Shown: in pieces, positions 2,226 to 54,572 of the stretch
How positions within the stretch are numbered: the first letter of the stretch is position 1
Layout of the letters: the number at the start of each line of letters is the position of its first letter
From: Eledone cirrhosa
Lineage: Eukaryota
Assembly (NCBI GenBank): GCA_964016885.1
Contig: OZ024749.1
Coordinates: 39,122,001 to 39,186,000 of the forward strand
Reading direction: 5' to 3'
DNA length: 64,000 nt
The notes under the pieces: model-generated
What the model was told of the DNA's origin: nothing
The model's input: only the letters and a program-made list of their open reading frames with translations
Databases searched by the model: none
Translations under genes and position numbers: made by a program

Positions 2226-2657
2226 ACCAAAGATTAGTATGGTTCGTTGATTACTCAACGAATACAATATTACAATAGATTAGAAGCACTCAACAAAGGA
2301 TTTTCCTGGGGTTTTTAATATTATTCAAAATGTTAACAAATGAAAACTATTCTCATAATCAAAATATATATTTTATTATACATATTTCAAAGGTACTATG
2401 GTGTTTAAGTACGTTTTCATCAGACAAAATATAAGATTTGATATCTGACATACCACTACGGTTTTGATTATTCAATTCTAGTATTGGCAGATACTAGAAT
2501 TGAATAATCAAAACCGTAGTGGTATGTCAGATATCAAATCATATATTTTGTCTGATGAAAACGTACTTAAACACCATAGTACCTTTGAAATATGTATAAT
2601 AAGATATATATTTTGATTATGAGAATATTTTTCATTTGTTAACATTTTGAATAATAT
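2225..2657 (-). mobile_element. Palindromic PLE-type insert with a hammerhead in each arm
   Basis: Near-perfect inverted repeat 2318-2484/2491-2657. The unique tail is at 2225-2317. (TA)n lies on both sides. Confidence 0.75.
2541..2609 (+). ncRNA. Minimal type I hammerhead ribozyme (mirrored on the minus strand in the left arm)
   Basis: Stem I ATATTTTGT/ATAAGATAT; CTGATGA 2552-2558; stem II AAACGTACT/AGTACCTTT; GAAA 2587-2590; short near-palindromic stem III TATGTA; ATA cleavage triplet. Confidence 0.75.
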
Positions 2658-4342: not shown

Positions 4343-5179
<837 letters not shown>

Positions 5180-5965: not shown

Positions 5966-6578
<613 letters not shown>

Positions 6579-6580
6579 CA

Positions 6581-6806
6581 GGTTGTCCTGTTGTGGGCAG
6601 TGTCCAGTCAGCTGACCTTGTCTTGCTCATACAGGAACTGTTTATATATATATAACTGATTATATATGTATAACTGATTATATATATATATATAATCAGT
6701 TCCTGTATCAGCAAGACAAGGTCAGCTGACTGGACACTGCCCACAACAGGACAACCCGTCTAACCCATGCTAGCGTGGAAGAACGGGCGTAAAATGGTGA
6801 TGATGA

Positions 6807-6810
<4 letters not shown>
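6581..6810 (+). mobile_element. RTE-type 3' tail with an inverted duplicate of its 5' part
   Basis: Inverted repeat 6581-6756 around a TA-rich centre. The right arm continues into CCCATGCTAGCGTGGAA...(GAT)n. Confidence 0.7.
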
Positions 6811-6844
<34 letters not shown>

Positions 6845-6854
6845 TATATATATA

Positions 6855-7657
6855 CGTGTGTTATATAGTTATAGAGGTATTTATTTACGCTTTAATTTAT
6901 ATTTTTAATTATCGTGTCTATAGTCTGCCTTTCATAGGTTATAGATTCCATACACTGGTGGTTCTTTTCCCTGTTTTATTGATAGCGCACTGTATATCTC
7001 TCTCTGGTGTGTTACCTTTCAACATATTGTATTTTAAAGAGCTCAGGATTTCTTCTCCTTTGAGCACATTATTTACAGGGAATAGCGACGGCCTATGCCT
7101 CCGTGAATTTATCGTGATATTTCGCTCCTAATAACAGTCTTTCCTATCTCTGTTTGGTTGAGCACACTTCTCTGAGTGGCTTTGGGCTGCCCTTTCTAGC
7201 AGTTCGTCCCTCAGGGGCCACTGGTTCACTGGCCTTAAACACGCTGTGACTTCTCTCTCCCACGTGTAGCTGGACAGTCACTTTTAAAATTCTCTTAGTG
7301 TTGTCTGAAATGTATAGCCTTACACACGCTGATGAAGCGGGGCTAACCCATTTCTTTCAACAAATTACTGGTGAAACATCTTTGGATTAGTATCTTTGGA
7401 TTTGTACGTGTGTTATATAGTTATAGAGGTATTTATTTACACTTTAATTTATATTTTTAATTATCGTGTCTATAGTCTGCCTTTCATAGGTTATAGATTC
7501 CATACACTGGTAGTTCTTTTCCCTGTTTTATTGATAGCGCACTGTATATCTCTCTCTGGTGTGTTACCTTTTCAACATATTGTATTTTAAAGAGCTCAGG
7601 ATTTCTTCTCCTTTGAGCACATTATTTACAGGGAATAGCGAGGGCCTATGCCTCCGT
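6855..7657 (+). mobile_element. Non-coding element with a ~250-bp direct repeat (552-bp period) and internal hammerhead; retrozyme/pLTR-like
   Basis: 6855-7104 is nearly identical to 7407-7657. A hammerhead lies at 7322-7413. Confidence 0.75.
7322..7413 (+). ncRNA. Type I hammerhead ribozyme
   Basis: Perfect stem I ACACACG/CGTGTGT; CTGATGA 7329-7335; GAAAC 7373-7377; GTA 7404-7406. Stems II and III are imperfect, with a small duplication in III. Confidence 0.7.
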
Positions 7658-7913
7658 TAACAGGGAACGTCTTCACAAACTAAAGTATCGTCTTCCTGTT
7701 TTCCTTTGGATGCAACGTTTTTCGAAATATTTGCTTTGCGTTCACAGATTGATTTTTTTTAGTTTCAGAAAATCCCGTTAAAGGTGAAAGCAGCGATTCT
7801 TTGCTTAAACTTTAATTTGTTATTTTAATAAATATTTGCTCTAGGGTTCTTATATATTTGATATATATTTATCCTTATCGAGCCTTCATTTTAGTCTTCA
7901 CATTTATTATTAT

Positions 7914-7918
<5 letters not shown>
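7658..7918 (+). mobile_element. Terminal segment of PLE-type family B
   Basis: Homologous to the reverse complement of 53072-53320; ends in (TA)n. Confidence 0.7.
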
Positions 7919-7975
<57 letters not shown>

Positions 7976-9245: not shown

Positions 9246-10811
9246 GTTTAACGTCCGTGTTCCATGCTTGCATGGGTTTGGACGGGAGTTTTCCCACTTG
9301 AGGCAAGAGTGGTTGTCCTGTTCGCATAGGACTGTCTGGCGGGTTTTCTACAGCTGGATGCCCTTCCTAACACCAACCACATTTACAGTGTGGGACTGGG
9401 ACGTTTTTACCGTGTTGCCTACACGATCTCATTTGTTTCGGCCTGGATTTTGTGGCACCAACATAACTTTACATTGAAAGGGGCGGTGTGGATGGGGTGG
9501 GGTGGGTGGGACGGGGGTGTATTTTGTTAGAGATGCCTACTGACTGTAGTAGGTTTTACTTTGTATTTAGGTAACGCGGGTCTTCTCTATTACTGAGTAC
9601 CGCCAAAGCTCTCGGTCCAGTGACATTGTCTTGGAGAGGTGTAAGTGTGTGAGGTGGAAATTTATCAGCTCGTCCCAGGTTTTTCTGGGTCTGCCTACTC
9701 CGTGGCTACCATCTATCTTTATTGCCCTGCACTTTGTTATACAGCTGTCGTCTTTCATGCGCATCACGTGACCATACCAATGTAGCCTTCTCTCGAGTAA
9801 ACAACATCTGATCCCTCTTATTTCTAATTTTTTCCTTAGTTCGTTTATGCTTTGCCGTTCGCGTATATTACTATTACACATCCAGCGGAGCATGCAAGCT
9901 TCGTTCCTCTCTAGTCTGCGTATATCCTCTGCACACACTGCCCAAGTCTCACTGCCATGCAACATTGCTGTTCGTATGCAGGCATCATACAACCTGCCTT
10001 TCACTTTTAGGGAGAACCCTTTAGCGGCTAATAGTGGTATAAGCTCTCTGAACTTTTTCCATCCAGTTCTGACTCTAGCTACTGTACTTTCGGAGCACCC
10101 TCCCCCACTGCTGATTTTGTCACCCAGGTAACGGAAGCTGTCCACTATTTCTATAGAACCCTCTGCGCAGTTGAAAGAGCTAGTATTTTGTGGGCACTTG
10201 CTGCTACTTATTGCACCAGAGCACCGGCCACATGTAAAATCGGTGTTCTTAGTTAGCTTACCTGTGATCCCACTACATCTTTTATGCACCCATACTCTGC
10301 ATTTGGGACATAAAATGGAGTTTCTACCTACGCCTTTCCTATACACTGAGCATGGCCATTTCCCGGAAGGGACCGGCGCCTTATTTTCTTTCCTACAAAC
10401 TAGAATTTTAGTTTTAGCCATGTTAATTTTAAGGCCTTTTGATTCTAGGCCGTGCTTCCATGCTTGGAATTTCTTCTCTAGCTCGGCCATTGATTCAGCT
10501 ATGAGCGTTAGGTCATCTGCGTATAGGAGTTCCCATGGGCAGCCAGTCTTGAACTCCTCTGTTATAGCCTGAAGAGCAATAATGAATAGTAGGGGGCTAA
10601 GAACAGAGCCCTGATGGACACCAACTTTTACGCTAAACTCTTCACTATATTCGTTGTTAATTCTAACCTTGCTCACTGTTTCTTTATACATGGCTTGTAT
10701 AGCTCTCACAAGCCATTGGTCAACACCTAGTTTTCTAAGAGCCCACCAGATAATGGAACGGGGGACTCTGTCGAAGGCTTTCTCCAAGTCGACAAAGGCT
10801 AAGTATAGGGC
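9208..10811 (-). mobile_element. 5'-truncated RTE-clade LINE
   Basis: RT coding region plus ~330-bp 3' UTR ending in (GAT)n on the minus strand. The 5' break abuts (TA)n. Confidence 0.93.
9567..10811 (-). CDS. Partial RTE reverse transcriptase with a Cys/His (PHD-like) insertion; uninterrupted frame
   Basis: FVDLEKAFDRV, GVHQGSVLSPLLF, LLYADD, FRYLG, HGSETW and GRPRKTW motifs. Cys-rich insert WPCSV...CPKC..WVHKRC...CGRC. Confidence 0.9.
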   Translation of the reverse strand, partial: ALYLAFVDLEKAFDRVPRSIIWWALRKLGVDQWLVRAIQAMYKETVSKVRINNEYSEEFSVKVGVHQGSVLSPLLFIIALQAITEEFKTGCPWELLYADDLTLIAESMAELEKKFQAWKHGLESKGLKINMAKTKILVCRKENKAPVPSGKWPCSVYRKGVGRNSILCPKCRVWVHKRCSGITGKLTKNTDFTCGRCSGAISSSKCPQNTSSFNCAEGSIEIVDSFRYLGDKISSGGGCSESTVARVRTGWKKFRELIPLLAAKGFSLKVKGRLYDACIRTAMLHGSETWAVCAEDIRRLERNEACMLRWMCNSNIRERQSINELRKKLEIRGIRCCLLERRLHWYGHVMRMKDDSCITKCRAIKIDGSHGVGRPRKTWDELINFHLTHLHLSKTMSLDRELWRYSVIEKTRVT

Positions 10812-10846
<35 letters not shown>

Positions 10847-10848
<2 letters not shown>

Positions 10849-16016: not shown

Positions 16017-16074
<58 letters not shown>

Positions 16075-16076
<2 letters not shown>

Positions 16077-17085
16077 TAGCTCATTCCATTGTACAGATGA
16101 TTCTATAGAAATATTGGACACCTTCCGTTACCTGGGTGACAAAATCAGCAGTGGGGGAGGGTGCTCTGAAAGTACAGTAGCTAGAGTCAGAGCGGGATGG
16201 AAAAAGTTCAGAGAGCTTATACCACTATTGGCCGCTAAAGGGTTCTCCCTAAAAATGAAAGGCAGGCTGTATGATGCCTGCATACGAACAGCAATGTTAC
16301 ATGGCAGTGAGACCTGGGCATTGTGTGCAGAGGATATACGCAGACTAGAGAGGAACGAAGCTTGCATGCTCCGCTGGATGTGTAATAGTAATATACGTGA
16401 ACGGCAAAGCATAAACGAACTAAGGGAGAAATTAGGAATAAGAGGGATCAGATGTTGTTTACCCGAGAGAAGACTACGTTGGTACGGTCACGTGATGCGC
16501 ATGAAAGACGACAGCTGTATAAAAAAGTGCAGGGCGATAAAAATAGACGGTAGCCAGGGAGTAGGCAGACCCAGAAAAACCTGGGACGAGCTGATAAATT
16601 CCGACCTCACACACTTACACCTCTCCAAGACAATGTCACTGGACCGAGATCTTTGGCGCTACACAGTTATACAGAAGACCTGCCTTGCCTAAGTTCAAAG
16701 TGAAACCTACAGTCAGTAGGCACCTCTAACAAAATACACCCCGTCCCACTACCCCCACCCCATCCACACCACCCCCTTAAATGTGAAGTTATGTTGGTAC
16801 CACAACATCCAGTCCGAAACAAATGAGGTCGTGTAGGTGTCACGACAAAAAAAAACACACAGTCCACGCTGTAATGTGGTCGTGTAGGTAACACGGTAAA
16901 AACCTCCCAGTCCACACTGTAAACGTGGTTGGTATTAGGAAGGGCATCCAGCCGTAGAAAACCCGCCAGACAGTCCTATACGAGCAGGACAACCGCTCTT
17001 GCCTCAAGTGGGAAAACTCCCGTCCAAACCCATGCAAGCGTGGAAGATGGACGTTAAACGATGATGATGATGAATGATGATGATA
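16075..17085 (+). mobile_element. 5'-truncated RTE LINE (same family as 9208-10811); coding to 16692
   Basis: [14 protein letters not shown]...GRPRKTWDELI is near-identical to the minus-strand copy; (GAT)n tail. Confidence 0.93.
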
Positions 17086-21664: not shown

Positions 21665-21717
21665 GAGATTCCTGATGATTTCTAAAGAATGAAACAGTTC
21701 TAGTCCTGTAGAATCTC
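21665..21717 (+). ncRNA. Type I hammerhead ribozyme at the start of a family C insert (21665-21800)
   Basis: GAGATTC-CTGATGA-TTTCTAAAGAAT-GAAAC-AGTTCTAGTCCT-GTA-GAATCTC: perfect 7-bp stem I, stem III CAG/CTG, GUA triplet. Confidence 0.8.
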
Positions 21718-22027
21718 ATCTATATTAAAACTTTTATACTCTGCAATGTATTGAGTACCTTACTTACTGTGGTTACCTCCGATTCAACCCGGAATAACGT
21801 AATATATATATATATATATATATCTGTGTGTGTGTGTGTGTGTGTAAAACGCAGTGATGCAGTGCACCTAAAACTATTGAATAACATCGCCAGAGGAAGT
21901 AAACAGAATATATGACCAGTCGACCTGAAACACGACTCCTCGTTAAAGCTGAGGAAAAACCAATAAACAAACGATTAGATGTTAATTTTGAGAATGAGAT
22001 AAACATGTTTAAGAAACCAAATATTAA

Positions 22028-22750: not shown

Positions 22751-25700
22751 CACTACCATCTACACAGTGACACAACACACTACACAGTGACACTACCATC
22801 TACACAGTGACACTACCATCTACACAGTGACACAACACACTACACAGTGACACAACACACTACACAGTGACACAACACACTACACAGTGACACTACCATC
22901 TACACAATGACACTACCATCTACACAGTGACACAACACACTACACAGTGACACAACACACTACACAATGACACTACCATCTACACAGTGACACAACACAC
23001 TACACAGTGACACTACCATCTACACAGTGACACTACCATCTACACAGTGACACAACACACTACACAGTGACACAACACACTACACAATGACACTACCATC
23101 TACACAGTGACACTACCATCTACACAGTGACACAACACACTACACAGTGACACAACACACTACACAGTGACACTACCATCTACACAGTGACACAACACAC
23201 TACACAGTGACACTACCATCTACACAGTGACACAACACACTACACAGTGACACTACCATCTACACAGTGACACAACACACTACACAGTGACACAACACAC
23301 TACACAGTGACACAACACACTACACAGTGACACTACCATCTACACAGTGACACTACCATCTACACAGTGACACAACACACTACACAGTGACACTACCATC
23401 TACACAGTGACACAACACACTACACAGTGACACAACACACTACACAGTGACACTACCATCTACACAGTGACACTACCATCTACACAGTGACACAACACAC
23501 TACACAGTGACACAACACACTACACAGTGACACTACCATCTACACAGTGACACTACCATCTACACAGTGACACAACACACTACACAGTGACACTACCATC
23601 TACACAGTGACACAACACACTACACAGTGACACTACCATCTACACAGTGACACAACACACTACACAGTGACACTACCATCTACACAGTGACACAACACAC
23701 TACACAGTGACACAACACACTACACAGTGACACTACCATCTACACAGTGACACTACCATCTACACAGTGACACTACCATCTACACAGTGACACTACCATC
23801 TACACAGTGACACAACACACTACACAGTGACACAACACACTACACAGTGACACTACCATCTACACAGTGACACTACCATCTACACAGTGACACAACACAC
23901 TACACAGTGACACAACACACTACACAGTGACACTACCATCTACACAGTGACACTACCATCTACACAGTGACACAACACACTACACAGTGACACTACCATC
24001 TACACAGTGACACAACACACTACACAGTGACACTACCATCTACACAGTGACACAACACACTACACAGTGACACAACACACTACACAGTGACACTACCATC
24101 TACACAGTGACACAACACACTACACAGTGACACTACCATCTACACAGTGACACAACACACTACACAGTGACACTACCATCTACACAGTGACACAACACAC
24201 TACACAGTGACACAACACACTACACAGTGACACTACCATCTACACAGTGACACAACACACTACACAGTGACACAACACACTACACAGTGACACTACCATC
24301 TACACAGTGACACAACACACTACACAGTGACACAACACACTACACAGTGACACTACCATCTACACAGTGACACAACACACTACACAGTGACACTACCATC
24401 TACACAGTGACACTACCATCTACACAGTGACACAACACACTACACAGTGACACTACCATCTACACAGTGACACTACCATCTACACAATGACACAACACAC
24501 TACACAGTGACACTACCATCTACACAGTGACACAACACACTACACAGTGACACTACCATCTACACAGTGACACTACCATCTACACAGTGACACAACACAC
24601 TACACAGTGACACTACCATCTACACAGTGACACAACACACTACACAGTGACACTACCATCTACACAATGACACTACCATCTACACAGTGACACTACCATC
24701 TACACAGTGACACTACCATCTACACAGTGACACAACACACTACACAGTGACACTACCATCTACACAGTGACACTACCATCTACACAGTGACACAACACAC
24801 TACACAGTGACACTACCATCTACACAATGACACTACCATCTACACAGTGACACAACACACTACACAGTGACACTACCATCTACACAATGACACTACCATC
24901 TACACAGTGACACTACCATCTACACAGTGACACTACCATCTACACAGTGACACAACACACTACACAGTGACACTACCATCTACACAGTGACACTACCATC
25001 TACACAGTGACACTACCATCTACACAGTGACACAACACACTACACAGTGACACTACCATCTACACAATGACACAACACACTACACAGTGACACTACCATC
25101 TACACAGTGACACTACCATCTACACAATGACACTACCATCTACACAGTGACACAACACACTACACAGTGACACTACCATCTACACAGTGACACAACACAC
25201 TACACAGTGACACTACCATCTACACAGTGACACAACCATCTACACAGTGACACAACACACTACACAGTGACACTACCATCTACACAGTGACACAACACAC
25301 TACACAGTGACACTACCATCTACACAGTGACACTACCATCTACACAGTGACACAACACACTACACAGTGACACTACCATCTACACAGTGACACAACACAC
25401 TACACAGTGACACAACACACTACACAGTGACACTACCATCTACACAGTGACACTACCATCTACACAGTGTCACAACACACTACACAGTGACACTACCATC
25501 TACACAGTGACACAACACACTACACAGTGACACTACCATCTACACAGTGACACAACACACTACACAGTGACACTACCATCTACACAGTGACACTACCATC
25601 TACACAGTGTCACAACACACTACACAGTGACACAACCATCTACACAGTGACACAACACACTACACAGTGACACTACCATCTACACAGTGACACAACACAC

Positions 25701-28700
25701 TACACAGTGACACTACCATCTACACAGTGACACTACCATCTACACAGTGACACAACACACTACACAGTGACACTACCATCTACACAGTGACACAACACAC
25801 TACACAGTGACACTACCATCTACACAGTGACACTACCATCTACACAGTGACACTACCATCTACACAGTGACACTACCATCTACACAGTGACACAACCATC
25901 TACACAGTGACACAACACACTACACAGTGACACTACCATCTACACAGTGACACAACACACTACACAGTGACACTACCATCTACACAGTGACACTACCATC
26001 TACACAGTGACACAACACACTACACAGTGACACTACCATCTACACAGTGACACAACACACTACACAGTGACACTACCATCTACACAGTGACACAACCATC
26101 TACACAGTGACACAACACACTACACAGTGACACTACCATCTACACAGTGACACAACACACTACACAGTGACACTACCATCTACACAGTGACACTACCATC
26201 TACACAGTGACACAACACACTACACAGTGACACTACCATCTACACAGTGACACTACCATCTACACAATGACACAACACACTACACAGTGACACTACCATC
26301 TACACAGTGACACAACACACTACACAGTGACACTACCATCTACACAGTGACACTACCATCTACACAGTGACACAACACACTACACAGTGACACTACCATC
26401 TACACAGTGACACAACACACTACACAGTGACACTACCATCTACACAATGACACTACCATCTACACAGTGACACTACCATCTACACAGTGACACTACCATC
26501 TACACAGTGACACAACACACTACACAGTGACACTACCATCTACACAGTGACACTACCATCTACACAGTGACACAACACACTACACAGTGACACTACCATC
26601 TACACAATGACACTACCATCTACACAGTGACACAACACACTACACAGTGACACTACCATCTACACAATGACACTACCATCTACACAGTGACACTACCATC
26701 TACACAGTGACACTACCATCTACACAGTGACACAACACACTACACAGTGACACTACCATCTACACAGTGACACTACCATCTACACAGTGACACTACCATC
26801 TACACAGTGACACAACACACTACACAGTGACACTACCATCTACACAATGACACAACACACTACACAGTGACACTACCATCTACACAGTGACACTACCATC
26901 TACACAATGACACTACCATCTACACAGTGACACAACACACTACACAGTGACACTACCATCTACACAGTGACACAACACACTACACAGTGACACTACCATC
27001 TACACAGTGACACAACCATCTACACAGTGACACAACACACTACACAGTGACACTACCATCTACACAGTGACACAACACACTACACAGTGACACTACCATC
27101 TACACAGTGACACTACCATCTACACAGTGACACAACACACTACACAGTGACACTACCATCTACACAGTGACACAACACACTACACAGTGACACAACACAC
27201 TACACAGTGACACTACCATCTACACAGTGACACTACCATCTACACAGTGTCACAACACACTACACAGTGACACTACCATCTACACAGTGACACAACACAC
27301 TACACAGTGACACTACCATCTACACAGTGACACAACACACTACACAGTGACACTACCATCTACACAGTGACACTACCATCTACACAGTGTCACAACACAC
27401 TACACAGTGACACAACCATCTACACAGTGACACAACACACTACACAGTGACACTACCATCTACACAGTGACACAACACACTACACAGTGACACTACCATC
27501 TACACAGTGACACTACCATCTACACAGTGACACAACACACTACACAGTGACACTACCATCTACACAGTGACACAACACACTACACAGTGACACTACCATC
27601 TACACAGTGACACTACCATCTACACAGTGACACTACCATCTACACAGTGACACTACCATCTACACAGTGACACAACCATCTACACAGTGACACAACACAC
27701 TACACAGTGACACTACCATCTACACAGTGACACAACACACTACACAGTGACACTACCATCTACACAGTGACACTACCATCTACACAGTGACACAACACAC
27801 TACACAGTGACACTACCATCTACACAGTGACACAACACACTACACAGTGACACTACCATCTACACAGTGACACAACCATCTACACAGTGACACAACACAC
27901 TACACAGTGACACTACCATCTACACAGTGACACAACCATCTACACAGTGACACAACACACTACACAGTGACACTACCATCTACACAGTGACACAACACAC
28001 TACACAATGACACAACACACTACACAGTGACACTACCATCTACACAGTGACACAACACACTACACAGTGACACTACCATCTACACAATGACACTACCATC
28101 TACACAGTGACACTACCATCTACACAATGACACTACCATCTACACAGTGTCACAACACACTACACAGTGACACTACCATCTACACAGTGACACTACCATC
28201 TACACAGTGACACAACACACTACACAGTGACACTACCATCTACACAGTGACACAACACACTACACAGTGACACTACCATCTACACAGTGACACTACCATC
28301 TACACAGTGACACTACCATCTACACAGTGACACTACCATCTACACAGTGACACAACACACTACACAGTGACACTACCATCTACACAGTGACACTACCATC
28401 TACACAGTGACACAACACACTACACAGTGACACTACCATCTACACAGTGACACAACCATCTACACAGTGACACAACACACTACACAGTGACACTACCATC
28501 TACACAGTGACACTACCATCTACACAGTGACACAACACACTACACAGTGACACTACCATCTACACAGTGACACTACCATCTACACAGTGACACTACCATC
28601 TACACAGTGACACAACACACTACACAGTGACACTACCATCTACACAGTGACACTACCATCTACACAGTGACACAACCATCTACACAGTGACACAACACAC

Positions 28701-31700
28701 TACACAGTGACACTACCATCTACACAGTGACACAACACACTACACAGTGACACTACCATCTACACAGTGACACAACCATCTACACAGTGACACAACACAC
28801 TACACAGTGACACTACCATCTACACAATGACACAACACACTACACAGTGACACTACCATCTACACAGTGACACTACCATCTACACAATGACACTACCATC
28901 TACACAGTGTCACAACACACTACACAGTGTCACAACACACTACACAGTGACACTACCATCTACACAGTGACACAACCATCTACACAGTGACACAACACAC
29001 TACACAGTGACACTACCATCTACACAATGACACAACACACTACACAGTGACACTACCATCTACACAGTGACACAACACACTACACAATGACACAACACAC
29101 TACACAGTGACACTACCATCTACACAGTGACACTACCATCTACACAGTGACACTACCATCTACACAGTGACACTACCATCTACACAATGACACAACACAC
29201 TACACAGTGACACTACCATCTACACAGTGACACTACCATCTACACAATGACACTACCATCTACACAGTGACACAACACACTACACAGTGACACTACCATC
29301 TACACAGTGACACTACCATCTACACAGTGACACAACACACTACACAGTGTCACAACACACTACACAGTGACACAACACACTACACAGTGACACAACACAC
29401 TACACAGTGACACTACCATCTACACAGTGACACTACCATCTACACAGTGACACTACCATCTACACAGTGACACAACACACGACACAGTGACACTACCATC
29501 TACACAGTGACACAACACACTACACAGTGACACTACCATCTACACGGTGACACTACCATCTACACAGTGACACAACACACTACACAGTGTCACAACACAC
29601 TACACAGTGACACAACACACTACACAGTGACACAACACACTACACAGTGACACTACCATCTACACAGTGACACTACCATCTACACAGTGACACTACGATC
29701 TACACAATGACACAACACACTACACAGTGACACTACACACTACACAGTGACACTACCATCTACACAGTGACACAACACACTACACAGTGTCACAACACAC
29801 TACACAGTGACACAACACACTACACAGTGACACAACACACTACACAGTGACACTACCATCTACACAGTGACACTACCATCTACACAGTGACACTACCATC
29901 TACACAGTGACACTACCATCTACACAGTGACACAATACACTACACAGTGACACAACACACTACACAGTGACACTACCATCTACACAGTGACACTACCATC
30001 TACACAGTGACACTACCATCTACACAGTGACACTACCATCTACACAGTGACACAACACACTACACAGTGACACTACCATCTACACAGTGACACTACCATC
30101 TACACAGTGACACTACCATCTACACAGTGTCACAACACACTACACAGTGACACTACCATCTACACAGTGACACTACCATCTACACAGTGACACAACACAC
30201 TACACAGTGACACTACCATCTATACAGTGACACAACACACTACACAGTGACACTACCATCTACACAGTGACACAACACACTACACAGTGACACTACCATC
30301 TACACAGTGACACAACACACTACACAGTGACACTACCATCTACACAGTGACACAACACACTACACAGTGACACTACCATCTACACAGTGACACAACACAC
30401 TACACAGTGACACTACCATCTACACAGTGACACTACCATCTACACAGTGACACAACACACTACACAGTGTCACAACACACTACACAGTGACACAACACAC
30501 TACACAGTGACACTACCATCCACACAGTGACACTACCATCTACACAGTGACACAACACACTACACAGTGACACTACCATCTACACAGTGACACTACCATC
30601 TACACAGTGACACAACACACTACACAGTGACACTACCATCTACACAGTGACACTACCATCTACACAGTGACACTACCATCTACACAGTGACACAACACAC
30701 TACACAGTGTCACAACACACTACACAGTGACACAACACACTACACAGTGACACAACACACTACACAGTGACACTACCATCTACACAGTGACACTACCATC
30801 TACACAGTGACACTACCATCTACACAGTGACACTACCATCTACACAATGACACAACACACTACACAGTGACACTACACACTACACAGTGACACTACCATC
30901 TACACAGTGACACTACCATCTACACAGTGACACTACCATCTACACAGTGACACAACACACTACACAGTGACACTACACACTACACAGTGACACTACCATC
31001 TACACAATGACACTACCATCTACACAGTGACACAACACACTACACAGTGACACTACCATCTACACAGTGACACTACCATCTACACAGTGACACAACACAC
31101 TACACAGTGACACAACACACTACACAGTGACACAACACACTACACAGTGACACTACCATCTACACAGTGACACTACCATCTACACAGTGACACAACACAC
31201 TACACAGTGACACTACCATCTACACAATGACACTACCATCTACACAGTGACACTACCATCTACACAGTGACACAACACACTACACAGTGACACAACACAC
31301 TACACAGTGACACTACCATCTACACAGTGACACAACACACTACACAGTGACACTACCATCTACACAGTGACACTACCATCTACACAGTGACACTACCATC
31401 TACACAGTGACACAACACACTACACAGTGACACTACCATCTACACAGTGACACAACACACTACACAGTGACACAACACACTACACAGTGACACTACCATC
31501 TACACAGTGACACTACCATCTACACAGTGACACAACACACTACACAGTGACACTACCATCTACACAGTGACACTACCATCTACACAGTGACACTACCATC
31601 TACACAGTGACACTACCATCTACACAGTGACACTACCATCTACACAGTGACACAACACACTACACAGTGACACAACACACTACACAGTGACACTACCATC

Positions 31701-32787
31701 TACACAGTGACACTACCATCTACACAGTGACACTACCATCTACACAGTGACACAACACACTACACAGTGACACAACACACTACACAGTGACACTACCATC
31801 TACACAGTGACACAACACACTACACAGTGACACTACCATCTACACAGTGACACAACACACTACACAGTGACACTACCATCTACACAGTGACACAACACAC
31901 TACACAGTGACACAACACACTACACAGTGTCACAACACACTACACAGTGACACAACACACTACACAGTGTCACAACACACTACACAGTGACACTACATAC
32001 TACACAGTGACACTACCATCTACACAGTGACACAACACACTACACAGTGACACTACCATCTACACAGTGACACAACACACTACACAGTGTCACAACACAC
32101 TACACAGCGACACTACACACTACACAGCGACACTACACACTACACAGTGACACGACATACTACACACTACAGAGTGACACTACACACTACACAGTGACCC
32201 TACACACTACATAGTGACACTACACACTACACAGTGACACTACACACAGTGACACAACACAATACACAGTGAAACAACACACTACACAGTGACAATACAC
32301 ACTACACACTACTACACAGTGACACAACACACTACTCACTACAGAGTGACACTACACACTACACACTACACACTACACACTATACAGTGACACTACACAC
32401 TACTCAGTGACACTACACACTATTCAGTGACACTACACACTACACACTATACAGTGGCACTACACACTACACAGTGACACTACACACTATTCAGTGACAC
32501 TACACACTACACACTACACAGTGACACTACACACTACACAGTGACACTACACACTACACAATGACACTACACACTACACAGTGACACTACACACTACACA
32601 ATGACACTACACACTATTCAGTGACACATCACACTACACTGTGACACTACACACTACACAGTGACACTACACACTATTCAGTGACACTGCACACTGCACA
32701 CTACACAGTGAGACTACACACTACACAGTGACACTACACACTATTCAGTGACACATCACACTACACTCTACACATTACACAGTGACA
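22751..32787. repeat. 20-bp satellite, about 470 in-phase units to ~32160, with a degenerate right margin
   Basis: Units TACACAGTGA-CACAACACAC and TACACAGTGA-CACTACCATC are interspersed. Phase is unbroken from 22761 to 32160. Confidence 0.98.
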
Positions 32788-48444: not shown

Positions 48445-48984
48445 AATAATAATAATAAAGTATGTTTTCCTACATGCAAAAAATGCATATAGGGACACAT
48501 GTATTATCCAACCGTATGCCAATGTGGTTCTATGGCAGGTTAATAAATTAACGACCAGAACATATATAATCAAGGTTTAGCAAATAGAGAAAAAGTTTTA
48601 AAATAAATTTTAAAAAGTTTACTGTACCTACTATACCCTTACCGCGCGGTTTCAAGCCTCAAAATAAATGGATAATCCATGCGGAAAATCCATTGAGAAG
48701 AAGACTTTCGTCAGAGGGTTCTTTTCACTCGGAGAATATAAAATTCCCGAGTTCAAATCACGAACTGGCGCCATACAGAACTGTTCCCGGATGAGAGTGT
48801 ATGATGAAGAAACAATTTTGTCTAGTGCCGTGTGTAAAGATAGAAGGCAAGGGCGGAAAGGTCAATGTACTGCCACTAGAAATAGCAGCAGTTAAAACGA
48901 CCAAAATGTTATCTCGACCAGGGGAGATTAATAATAATAAAGTATTTTTTCTACATGCAAAAAATGCATATTTGCTAAACCTTG

Positions 48985-48990
<6 letters not shown>
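48445..48990 (-). mobile_element. PLE-type insert with hammerhead, short inverted arm and duplicated terminus
   Basis: 48562-48583 is inverted at 48970-48991. The block AATAAAGTAT..TTCTACATGCAAAAAATGCATAT occurs at 48454 and 48935. Confidence 0.65.
48635..48719 (-). ncRNA. Type I hammerhead ribozyme
   Basis: Minus strand ACCCT-CTGACGA-AAGTC...GGCTT-GAAAC-CGCGCG-GTA-AGGGT. All three stems close, and stem III is palindromic. Confidence 0.85.
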
Positions 48991-52043: not shown

Positions 52044-52157
52044 ATATATATATATATATTTAATATAGAAAAGGCTTCTACAGGACTAGAACTGTTTCAT
52101 TCGGGATCAGAGTTTTGTAGCTTACTTGAAGCATTGTTGAATAGGGAACACAAATTT

Positions 52158-52443
52158 AGATAATTTTGAAAACCATACTATGCATTAGAAAGAAAATTAA
52201 ATCGCCAAGATAACAAAAGAATCTTACCTTAGCAAATTTAATTATCCCAAATATTTAACTTAAATCTTGCTCTCCAAACAAGCAAGTCAACTCCGATCGA
52301 TTTTTAAAGTCTGTCATGGATAACGGGTTTTTAAACCCGAAAATATTTGGGATTGTTAAATTTGGTAAGGTAAGATTCTTTTGTTATCTTGGCAATATAA
52401 TTTTCTTTCTTATGTTTGGTTTTCAAAATTATTTAAACTTGTG
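52158..52443. repeat. Aged inverted repeat with ~110-bp arms
   Basis: GCCAAGATAACAAAAGAATCTTACCTTA / TAAGGTAAGATTCTTTTGTTATCTTGGC, with flanking matches. Confidence 0.8.
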
Positions 52444-53027
52444 TATATAAACATATACATAAATCAGGATGGATTCTGTTTCAAACTGGTCAGACCATTA
52501 CTCAACAGAGTACTCGATGCAGTCCTAGAGTTGTTTTATACTTTTAAAAAACGAACTTGTTAATGTGGTTTCAAAATTTAATATAGAAAAATAAGTCTAT
52601 CGCAATCAAATCCATGAAGCGACATGAAATCTTTTTATTAATCATTAGTGGCGAATAAAAAAAATCATTATTATTAATTTTTTTTTTTTTTTTTACCCAT
52701 CACATTCTAATTATATTACCAGTACAATTACTAAACTCACGATAGTTACAAAATATCTTTTTGTTCTTCTATGAAAATTGAGATTTATGCCTAAGTAAAT
52801 TAAATTTATAAAAATAAAAAATCAATATTTTTTATTTCCTTTCACTACAATTCTTCGGCTTTATACCTAAGTAAATGAAGCAACCACTTCAACATAAAGT
52901 GTGAAAATAATAGACGCATTAGAAAATAATGGAAGGATTAATTGAAGTAGATTAATAATTAAAAAATTGAGGAAAGAATTCGAATAGCCATTAACATCAT
53001 CGACTAAAGATAATGTATATACATGCT

Positions 53028-53071
<44 letters not shown>

Positions 53072-53077
<6 letters not shown>

Positions 53078-53423
53078 ATAATAATAAATTTGTAGACTAA
53101 AATCCAAAGAGGGCTCGATAAGGATAAATATATATCAAATATATAAGAACCGTAGAGCAAATATTTATTAAAATAACAGATTAAAGTTTAAGCAAAGAAT
53201 CGCTGCTTTCACCCTTAACGGGATCTTCTGAAACTAACAAAGTCAATCTGTAAACGCAGAAGTGGATATTTTAAAAAACGTTGGAACCGGAGGAAGACAG
53301 GAAGACGATACTTTGGTTCCACGAACCAAAGTATCGTTATACAGATTGACTTTGTTAGTTTCAGAAGATCCCGTTAAGAGTGAAAGCAGCGATTCTTTGC
53401 TTAAACTTTAATCTGTTATTTTA

Positions 53424-53430
<7 letters not shown>
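53072..53430 (-). mobile_element. Family B palindromic insert
   Basis: Arms about 53161-53252/53340-53430, central hairpin CGATACTTTGGTTC/GAACCAAAGTATCG, tail 53072-53160. Confidence 0.75.
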
Positions 53431-53473
<43 letters not shown>

Positions 53474-53481
<8 letters not shown>

Positions 53482-53826
53482 GTGAGGTTTTTTTTACAAA
53501 ATGAAAAATAACCGAGGTGTCCTACACGAGTGAAAGTATAAAGAAAAAAAGATGAAATCGAAAATGCAACTGGAGTCTTATTTTTTTTTTAAATATATAT
53601 ATTTATTTGGTTCCTTTACCGGTTTCGCAGTTCTTCTGCTTTTCAAAAGTAGAGTTGAGATGGAGGGTCTGTGGTTTTTCTCACGTGAGAAAAACCACAG
53701 ACCCTCCATCTCAATTCTACTTTTGAAAAGCAGAAGAACTGCGAAACCGGTAAAGGAACCAAATAAATATATATATTTAAAAAAAAAATAAGACTCCAGT
53801 TGCATTTTCGATTTCATCTTTTTTTC
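53474..53826 (-). mobile_element. Spacerless palindromic insert (~140-bp arms) with hammerhead 3' half
   Basis: Centre TTTTTCTCACGTGAGAAAAA; GAAAC-CG-GTA in the arms; tail 53474-53543. A related relic lies near 46740-46815. Confidence 0.75.
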
Positions 53827-54188: not shown

Positions 54189-54215
54189 ATATATACACAC
54201 ACACATATATATATA

Positions 54216-54371
54216 TGATTTCTAAAGAATGAAACAGTTCTAGTACTGTAGAATCTCATCTATATTAAAACTTGTATACTCTGCAATGTATTGAGTACCT
54301 TACTTACTGTGGTTACCTCTGATTCAACCCGGAATAACGTATATATATATATATATATATATAAATGTTGA

Positions 54372-54428
<57 letters not shown>

Positions 54429-54572
54429 TATATACGTTATTCCGGGTTGAATCGGAGGTAACCACAGTAAGTAAGGTACTCAATACATTGCAGAGTATAA
54501 AAGTTTTAATATGAAGTTTTAAAATGAATGAAACAGTTCTAGTCCTGTAGAATCTCATCTATATTAAAACTA
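54216..54572. mobile_element. Cluster of three family C pieces (+ 54216-54340, - 54435-54512, + 54525-54571)
   Basis: Near-identical to 21676-21800. The first two pieces are tail-to-tail across (TA)n. Confidence 0.8.

What the first reader, a model, noticed from the sequence alone, without database searches (positions are those of the whole stretch)
6855..7657. Direct-repeat unit whose 5' end is exactly its own hammerhead cleavage site
Seen: the hammerhead at 7322-7413 should cut after GTA 7406, leaving CGTGTGTTATATAG... The insert's left end at 6855 starts with this same CGTGTGTTATATAG directly after (TA)n, giving a 552-nt monomer plus a ~250-nt repeat and no ORF. The preceding TA is ambiguous with the microsatellite. 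Known: retrozymes and PLE pLTRs are processed by hammerheads, and retrozyme monomers circularise. Inferred: the reverse-transcribed template was a ribozyme-cleaved RNA. This is a genomic footprint of in vivo cleavage and a candidate non-autonomous retrozyme.
Basis: partly seen in the sequence, partly recalled or inferred. Interest (0 to 1): 0.8.

Follow-up and report, generated by a model that had tools for sequence, protein, structure and literature searches.

The report
Retrozyme insertion ending at ribozyme cut
This is one decayed copy of an abundant non-coding repeat carrying a hammerhead ribozyme motif, likely pasted in by a Penelope-type jumping gene; its left edge sits at the predicted self-cutting site, which may be a scar of cut RNA but could equally be chance, since the other copy ends seen are scattered.

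Summary
Confirmed: a 552-nt unit (6855-7406) plus a 254-nt repeat of its start (to 7660, not 7657), no ORF, a type I hammerhead motif, and a left end at the predicted cut (2-nt TA ambiguity). Public reads show a multi-copy family, also in a second species. Other copies pair stems II and III better than this one, which has private damage (7337, a 14-nt duplication). TA target, partial tandem and inversions point to a non-autonomous Penelope-mobilised, retrozyme-like element. The 'footprint of cleavage' claim is not established. Chance is 0.3-1.8% per end, but about 3-18% over the 11 comparable ends in this window. 0 of 10 other hammerhead-family 5' ends in the window, 0 of 22 inversion breakpoints and 0 of 1 microsatellite-joined end of this family lie at the cut. 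The insertion also reads through an identical site internally. These samples exclude a dominant end there, not a minority class. I put the causal reading at about 40%. The scan has noted similar retrozyme families, and a similar cut-end claim, on other DNA of this genome (unchecked).

The parts
6809..6854 (.). (TA)n microsatellite, left target; last TA is shared with the insert
6855..7406 (+). One full non-coding unit, cut site to cut site (552 nt here, about 540 in other copies; 40% GC)
   Evidence: record 4 is 10 nt shorter across the ribozyme
6855..7107 (+). First copy of segment A; begins with the 3' strand of stem I
7108..7312 (+). Segment B, single in this locus; continuous with A in other copies
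   Evidence: X2 record 8 (7071-7254, 22 other letters)
7313..7425 (+). Type I hammerhead motif: distal stem I 7313-7318/7420-7425, stem I 7322-7328/7407-7413, CUGAUGA 7329-7335, stem II region 7336-7372 (damaged at 7337), GAAA 7373-7376, GUA 7404-7406, predicted cut 7406/7407
7378..7406 (+). 14-nt tandem duplication in stem III, not seen in the best-supported reads of other copies
7407..7660 (+). Second copy of segment A (partial tandem, pLTR-like); inferred side where reverse transcription started
   Evidence: one X4 contig ends at the equivalent of 7120 followed by ATATATAT
7661..7916 (+). 5'-truncated, apparently older copy of a second, very abundant TA-anchored repeat family; neighbour, not part of the unit
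   Evidence: 28 differing columns of 245 against the copy at 53075-53318
7917..7972 (.). (TA)n run at the 3' end of the second family's copy

Best explanation
This is a 1.46-unit copy of a multi-copy non-coding hammerhead repeat, likely inserted into a (TA)n run by a Penelope-like reverse transcriptase/endonuclease supplied from elsewhere, and whether its left end marks a self-cleaved RNA end is untested beyond this one junction. Shown: unit and repeat, ribozyme motif, TA target, a multi-copy family whose copies run A-B-ribozyme-A, scattered inversion junctions, private damage to this ribozyme. Inferred: the enzyme nicked the TA run beside an older repeat, started about 254-266 nt downstream of the cut site, copied leftward through one intact ribozyme junction (so the template was a circle, an uncleaved multimer, or a linear unit with a template jump), went one more full unit and stopped at 6853-6855, where a TA in the cDNA could anneal to the target. 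The copy then picked up about 1% mutations, including the ones that weaken stems II and III. For the stop I put about 60% on ordinary 5' truncation at a TA microhomology and about 40% on run-off from a ribozyme-made 5' end.
For: Partial tandem in a TA target matches PLE anatomy (PMC8557442, passages). Family: 439 contigs of X3 and 767 reads of X12 laid on 191 nt, only 10 of the 767 at 99% or more identity; 13 contigs from a second organism (X4). Other copies have C at 7337 (241 of 259 X11 reads, 189 of 199 X12 reads), which pairs with G7371, and a compact 6-7 bp stem III (loose ends before 7393: 197 X11 reads, 183 X12 reads, 15 X3 contigs). 11 opposite-strand joints among the 15 joints shown fit the inverted 5'-truncated partners of PLEs. 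Neighbouring hammerhead families in the window show fixed 3' ends next to TA runs (+91 in 3 copies, +19 to +22 in 2) and scattered 5' ends, like the two start sites of the Anolis PLE (PMC11167929). 9 of those 10 neighbouring arms, and this insertion itself, read through a cut site without stopping.
Against: No autonomous partner was identified: no PLE-like ORF stood out among window frames of 150 aa or more (by eye only) and no genome was held. The family's 3' end rests on one contig from another organism. Arrays with two or more complete ribozymes were not shown for this family. No target-site duplication can be read. The direction of the inversion joints is not given, 4 joints were hidden, and several breakpoints at 7545-7551 may be alignment limits. 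The hammerhead fold is a tiny share of the predicted ensemble for this copy (8e-10 to 1.4e-6; 4.4e-6 with the common letter at 7337), though the model ignores tertiary contacts and I ran no known-active control.
Confidence: 0.75

Rival explanations
1. The left end is a true run-off from a hammerhead-cleaved RNA. One linear unit would be primed internally, copied to its 5' end, jumped once to its own free 3' end, and copied again to the 5' end, where no free acceptor is left; or a multimeric transcript was cut at the upstream ribozyme only. Either gives exactly one unit plus an overhang, starting at the cut.
For: Left end within the 2-nt ambiguity of the cut; 1 of 323 distinguishable junction classes. 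The two A copies differ at only 5 of 254 columns while most family reads are under 95% alike, as expected from one molecule or one homogeneous array. The ribozyme damage is private to this copy, so the motif was likely intact at insertion. A 2-nt insertion exactly at the cut junction occurs in 55 of 417 X12 reads (12 starts) and 4 X3 contigs, which could be a joining scar. Precedent with another ribozyme: Drosophila R2 RNA is cut at the element's exact 5' junction (PMC3774820, abstract).
Against: 0 of 22 inversion breakpoints and 0 of 1 microsatellite-joined end of this family at the cut; 0 of 10 ends of other families in the window; none of the 6 best loose ends per run in X12 or X3 is a TA-type end at 7405-7407 (55 rows hidden, biased library). 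The cut site carries a 2-nt TA microhomology, as do 55 sites in the unit. For the Anolis PLE, ribozyme mutants did not affect insertion in vitro and no RNA-seq reads ended at the cut (PMC11167929). The 2-nt insertion lies in an alternating purine-pyrimidine tract and may be slippage or a subfamily variant.
Confidence: 0.4
2. The locus is a 5'-truncated partial tandem of the terminal (pLTR) region of an autonomous, ORF-bearing Penelope-like element, with no separate non-autonomous family.
For: PLE insertions are mostly 5'-truncated and form partial tandems with type I hammerheads (PMC8557442, PMC4209133). Retrozymes and pLTRs are related (10.64898/2026.07.22.740005). 591 loose-end rows were hidden, so a branch into an ORF could be missed.
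Against: Other copies run from A into B and from B through the ribozyme into A with no gap for an ORF (X2 record 8, X4 record 18, X1 record 4). No Pfam hit in 7 frames. None of the loose ends shown inside the unit looks like a different upstream region.
Confidence: 0.15
3. The 254-nt repeat arose by a local DNA-level tandem duplication or recombination after a shorter insertion, and the left end says nothing about an RNA template.
For: A 14-nt local duplication did occur in this copy; the region is rich in unstable repeats.
Against: A local duplication would not place A before B; the A-to-B join exists in other, diverged copies, so it is a family feature.
Confidence: 0.05

Closest known systems
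Metazoan non-LTR retrozymes (Cervera and de la Pena 2020, PMC7229834, passages and Discussion read; Li, Clavereau and Pollet 2026, 10.64898/2026.07.22.740005, parts 1 and 3 of 5 read)
   Same: Non-coding, GC under 50%, type I hammerhead with one motif per unit, head-to-tail organisation, proposed PLE mobilisation.
   Different: Unit of about 540-552 nt is above the 150-450 bp range given for the tandem repeats; this locus has one ribozyme, so it fails the two-ribozyme criterion for an active retrozyme; circular RNA and cleavage not shown.
pLTR and tail of EN+ Penelope-like elements (Cervera and de la Pena 2014, PMC4209133, parts 1-2 of 4; Craig et al. 2021, PMC8557442, passages; Frangieh et al. 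2024, PMC11167929, parts 1-2 of 4)
   Same: Partial tandem, TA/AT-rich target, variable 5' truncation, inverted partners, hammerhead upstream of the inferred start of reverse transcription.
   Different: No ORF; stem III in other copies is long rather than minimal; inferred start is about 254-266 nt from the cut against roughly 85-92 nt in the Anolis element (111-118 minus 26, my arithmetic).
R2 retrotransposon HDV-like ribozyme (Eickbush, Burke and Eickbush 2013, PMC3774820, abstract only)
   Same: A ribozyme cut can set the 5' junction of a retroelement, with second-strand priming by chance microhomology.
   Different: Different ribozyme and element class; shown over many junctions and by assay there, one junction here.

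Membership tests
Type I hammerhead ribozyme | Core CUGANGA, GAAA and NUH in order | tested here: met
   7329-7335, 7373-7376, GUA 7404-7406
Type I hammerhead ribozyme | Open stem I flanking the cut, with internal loop | tested here: met
   7 WC pairs plus distal helix in the unconstrained fold
Type I hammerhead ribozyme | Paired stem II | tested here: inconclusive
   Broken at the second pair in this copy; other copies have CC(A)...(U)GG. The closing pair is A-U or A.C, not the usual G-C. No full-length alignment, so covariation was not counted.
Type I hammerhead ribozyme | Stem III | tested here: met
   3 pairs then a duplicated loop here; 6-7 pairs read from loose ends of other copies
Type I hammerhead ribozyme | Match to a curated Rfam hammerhead model | tested here: not met
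   0 hits at gathering score in the window; 5 hits at E up to 10 in 6800-7950, none a hammerhead
Type I hammerhead ribozyme | Self-cleavage | not testable with these tools
   needs an assay
Non-LTR retrozyme | No protein; GC under 50% | tested here: met
   40% GC, 0 of 7 frames with Pfam hit
Non-LTR retrozyme | Multi-copy, head-to-tail unit with a type I hammerhead | tested here: met
   A-B and B-ribozyme-A joins in other copies; many diverged copies
Non-LTR retrozyme (active, Li et al. criterion) | [quoted passage not shown] | tested here: not met
   One complete motif at this locus; not testable for the family without the genome
Non-LTR retrozyme | Unit of 150-450 bp | tested here: not met
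   552 nt here, about 540 elsewhere; the same paper allows circles of 150 to over 1000 nt
Non-LTR retrozyme | Expressed as linear and circular monomer RNA | not testable with these tools
   no RNA run could be laid
Autonomous EN+ Penelope-like element | ORF with RT and GIY-YIG endonuclease | tested here: not met
   none at this locus
PLE-mobilised insertion | Partial tandem, microsatellite target, variable 5' ends, inverted partners | tested here: met
PLE-mobilised insertion | Two fixed 3' ends (tail) | tested here: inconclusive
   One end at +254 here and one contig at +266; clear only for neighbouring families

The most novel reading that the evidence does not exclude
Hammerhead-cleaved linear RNA, not only a circle, is a template for Penelope-type enzymes: a single cut-to-cut unit primed internally and copied with one jump across its own ends leaves an insertion of exactly one unit plus an overhang that starts at the cut. 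Such copies would be a genome-wide record of in vivo hammerhead cleavage in the germ line and would give PLE-associated hammerheads a role like the R2 ribozyme in setting the 5' end.
Probability: 0.3. Interest if true: 0.65.

Novelty: new member of a known kind. Interest (0 to 1): 0.33.

Why it matters
What hammerheads do in Penelope-like elements and animal retrozymes is open: the papers read here propose circles as templates, and the one in vitro study found cleavage unnecessary and saw no reads ending at the cut. An excess of genomic 5' ends at the cut would show that cleaved linear RNA is copied in vivo, and it can be counted from any assembly. One junction in a damaged copy does not settle it. 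As it stands the locus adds one more family, with a largish unit, to a known class.

Tried and rejected
Own genome: not held, so no genome-wide mapping of ends. Pattern scans for relatives: 0 in metagenome contigs, viral contigs and genome contigs. Earlier-findings look-up by sequence and near: nothing. Sequencing runs: no RNA holder listed; this says nothing about expression. Summed contig depth was rejected as a measure of copy number or of where ends pile up: it swings more than tenfold within segment A. The step in X12 depth at about 7409 (403 to 509 reads between bins) was considered as a pile of 5' ends and rejected: it falls after the cut, and the library's read ends sit at AATT sites (7106, 7288, 7363, 7446, 7459), so a restriction site made by one base change at 7408 in some copies is the simpler cause (inferred, not checked). 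The same digestion biases which copies are seen, and reads with long TA runs may be filtered, so the absence of a TA-type loose end is weak evidence. The 20 nt after 7657 first looked like repair filler; reads show they belong to the second family. The 91-codon stop-free frame starting at the cut has no ATG-led start and no Pfam hit; treated as chance. RNA-editing scars: the private changes I could list are mixed (A>G, C>G, T>G, G>A), no pattern. Pol III promoter: one loose box-A-like match, no box B; not pursued. Circular fold of the unit is more stable than 40 shuffles (z -3.2), the ribozyme region alone is not (z -0.9); neither was used as evidence of a circle.

Full report
Observation. The repeat is real: 6855-7107 and 7407-7660 differ at 5 of 254 columns, 552 nt apart. 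The match extends two bases into the (TA)n run at 6809-6854, so the left end is 6853-6855. A type I hammerhead motif lies on the plus strand, with stem I 7322-7328/7407-7413, a distal helix across an internal loop, CUGAUGA, GAAA and GUA, predicting a cut at 7406/7407. Motifs of this quality occur 4 times in the window and 0 times in each of 40 block shuffles. Rfam does not recognise it. Seven of the 12 stop-free frames of 45 aa or more were scanned and none matched Pfam.

The family. No genome was held and four pattern scans of prokaryote, viral and metagenome collections were empty. Public runs hold the sequence. Six runs were laid. They show many diverged copies: 439 contigs of X3 and 767 reads of X12 on 191 nt, only 10 of those reads at 99% or more. 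A second organism (X4) has it too. Other copies run from A into B (X2 record 8, 7071-7254) and from B through the ribozyme into A (X4 record 18; X1 record 4, 10 nt shorter), so the unit is a closed A-B circuit with no visible place for an ORF, although 591 loose-end rows were hidden. Earlier notes call the host a cephalopod; I did not test that.

This copy is damaged. At 7337 it has G where 241 of 259 X11 reads and 189 of 199 X12 reads have C, which pairs with 7371 in stem II. It has a 14-nt duplication in stem III, where the best-supported loose ends of other copies read as a compact 6-7 bp stem. The hammerhead fold is a tiny share of the predicted ensemble for this copy, with or without the common letter at 7337; that calculation omits tertiary contacts and had no active control. 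The private changes amount to roughly 1-2%, in line with the 2% between the two A copies, so the motif was likely intact when inserted. Conservation of the stems was read from variant tables, not from an alignment; covariation was not counted.

The right end. Other copies have T at 7105, so the repeat runs to 7660. What follows (7661-7916) is a 5'-truncated copy of another very abundant family ending on the TA run at 7917; it recurs as a two-armed insertion at 53075-53431. It differs from that copy at 28 of 245 columns, so it looks older. The junction has single-locus depth in X1 (about 13 of 241). One X4 contig ends at the equivalent of +266 and continues in AT repeats, near the +254 end here. 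Either the element was primed at the edge of a TA run beside the older copy, or a later deletion trimmed both.

Is the left end more than chance? The unit has 323 distinguishable junction classes, 55 of them with 2 or more bases of TA microhomology, the cut site being one. Per end the chance is 0.3-1.8%. The window has about 11 comparable ends, giving 3-18% for at least one hit (hand arithmetic, using this unit's numbers for all families). Controls in the window (offsets partly read by eye): a second hammerhead family has 5' ends at about -45, -35, +12, -23 and -23 from its cut, with 3' ends fixed at +91 or +19 to +22; two two-armed insertions start 70-113 nt upstream of their cuts; one more starts about 345 nt upstream (boundary assumed at a TA run). 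That is 0 of 10 at the cut, and 9 of 10 read through it. In this family, one search shows 15 of 19 joints, 11 of them opposite-strand; none of their 22 breakpoints is within 5 nt of the cut (nearest 7397 and 7425), and the one microsatellite-joined start shown is at 7045. Some of these breakpoints may be alignment limits, their direction is not given, and X1 and X2 are one sample. In one search none of the 6 best loose ends per run is a TA-type end at 7405-7407; at least 403 of about 509 X12 reads continue upstream through the ribozyme. That library is cut at AATT and biased, and TA-rich reads may be filtered. Together the data rule out the cut as the usual 5' end but not a class of a few percent.

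Mechanism. Partial tandem, TA target, variable 5' ends and inverted partners are the marks of Penelope-like elements (PMC8557442, 12 passages seen). The Anolis PLE protein nicks AT-rich DNA and starts copying at internal sites downstream of its hammerhead; ribozyme mutants still inserted and no RNA-seq reads ended at the cut (PMC11167929, parts 1-2 of 4). Circular templates have been proposed for PLEs and retrozymes (PMC4209133, parts 1-2 of 4; PMC7229834, passages and Discussion), and retrozymes have been tied to pLTRs (10.64898/2026.07.22.740005, parts 1 and 3 of 5; 1 of 9 dimers cleaved in vitro). I infer priming at the right end, copying through one ribozyme junction, and a stop one unit later. 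Reading through the junction needs a circle, an uncut multimer or a jump. On a circle the stop at the cut is chance. On a linear cut-to-cut unit with one jump, or a multimer cut only upstream, it is expected. Template jumping by non-LTR reverse transcriptases is in print (PMC8857657, search listing only); I saw no test of it for PLEs. A 2-nt insertion at the junction in 55 of 417 X12 reads and 4 X3 contigs could be a joining scar or slippage. I give the causal reading about 40%.

Known and new. It works like a metazoan non-LTR retrozyme moved by PLE enzymes. This locus is not an active retrozyme by the two-ribozyme criterion, its unit is above the usual size range, and it is not an autonomous PLE. 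A ribozyme cut setting a 5' junction is known for R2 (PMC3774820, abstract). In searches and the passages read (also PMC8490949 and PMC13282606, passages) I found no report of hammerhead cut sites as 5' boundaries of PLE or retrozyme copies; subscription papers and all supplements were not seen and may bear on this. Earlier notes of this scan describe several such families in the same genome, one with ends said to point to cut RNA units and one array said to start at its cut site; these are unchecked leads, not support.

Verdict. Real feature, known kind, headline claim open and leaning slightly against on the evidence in hand, with a cheap decisive test. Interest 0.33.

Noticed in passing
window 7661-7916 (+) and 53075-53431: Second, very abundant TA-anchored family with two-armed insertions whose outer ends differ by about 80 nt; it carries a hammerhead-like motif with a non-standard core (CAGAAGA ... 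GAAA ... CUU, about 7763-7810) that my canonical scan did not pick up.
   Followed up: partly
window 21665-21801, 52059-52102, 54215-54341, 54433-54571: Five short arms of one minimal-hammerhead family with two fixed 3' ends (+91 and +19 to +22 from the cut) next to TA runs and scattered 5' ends; a compact example of the PLE tail signature.
   Followed up: partly
window 2226-2657 and 4419-4719: Two head-to-head two-armed insertions, each arm with a hammerhead motif, between TA runs; the two loci share the sequence just before the core.
   Followed up: partly
window 48560-48985 (-): Another hammerhead motif (core at 48714, long stem II region) in a stretch bounded by a TA run.
   Followed up: no
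window 7406/7407, in runs X12 and X3: Two extra letters exactly at the predicted cut junction in 55 of 417 reads and 4 contigs.
   Followed up: no
window 9570-10847 (-): 426-codon stop-free frame that reads like a LINE reverse transcriptase by eye (not scanned); related pieces at 16073-17059 and nearby.
   Followed up: no
window 22751-32754: 10-kb satellite of a 20-nt unit with strong strand skew.
   Followed up: no
window 6571-6766, 52148-52444, 53551-53818: Further palindromic insertions, possibly two-armed copies of other families.
   Followed up: no
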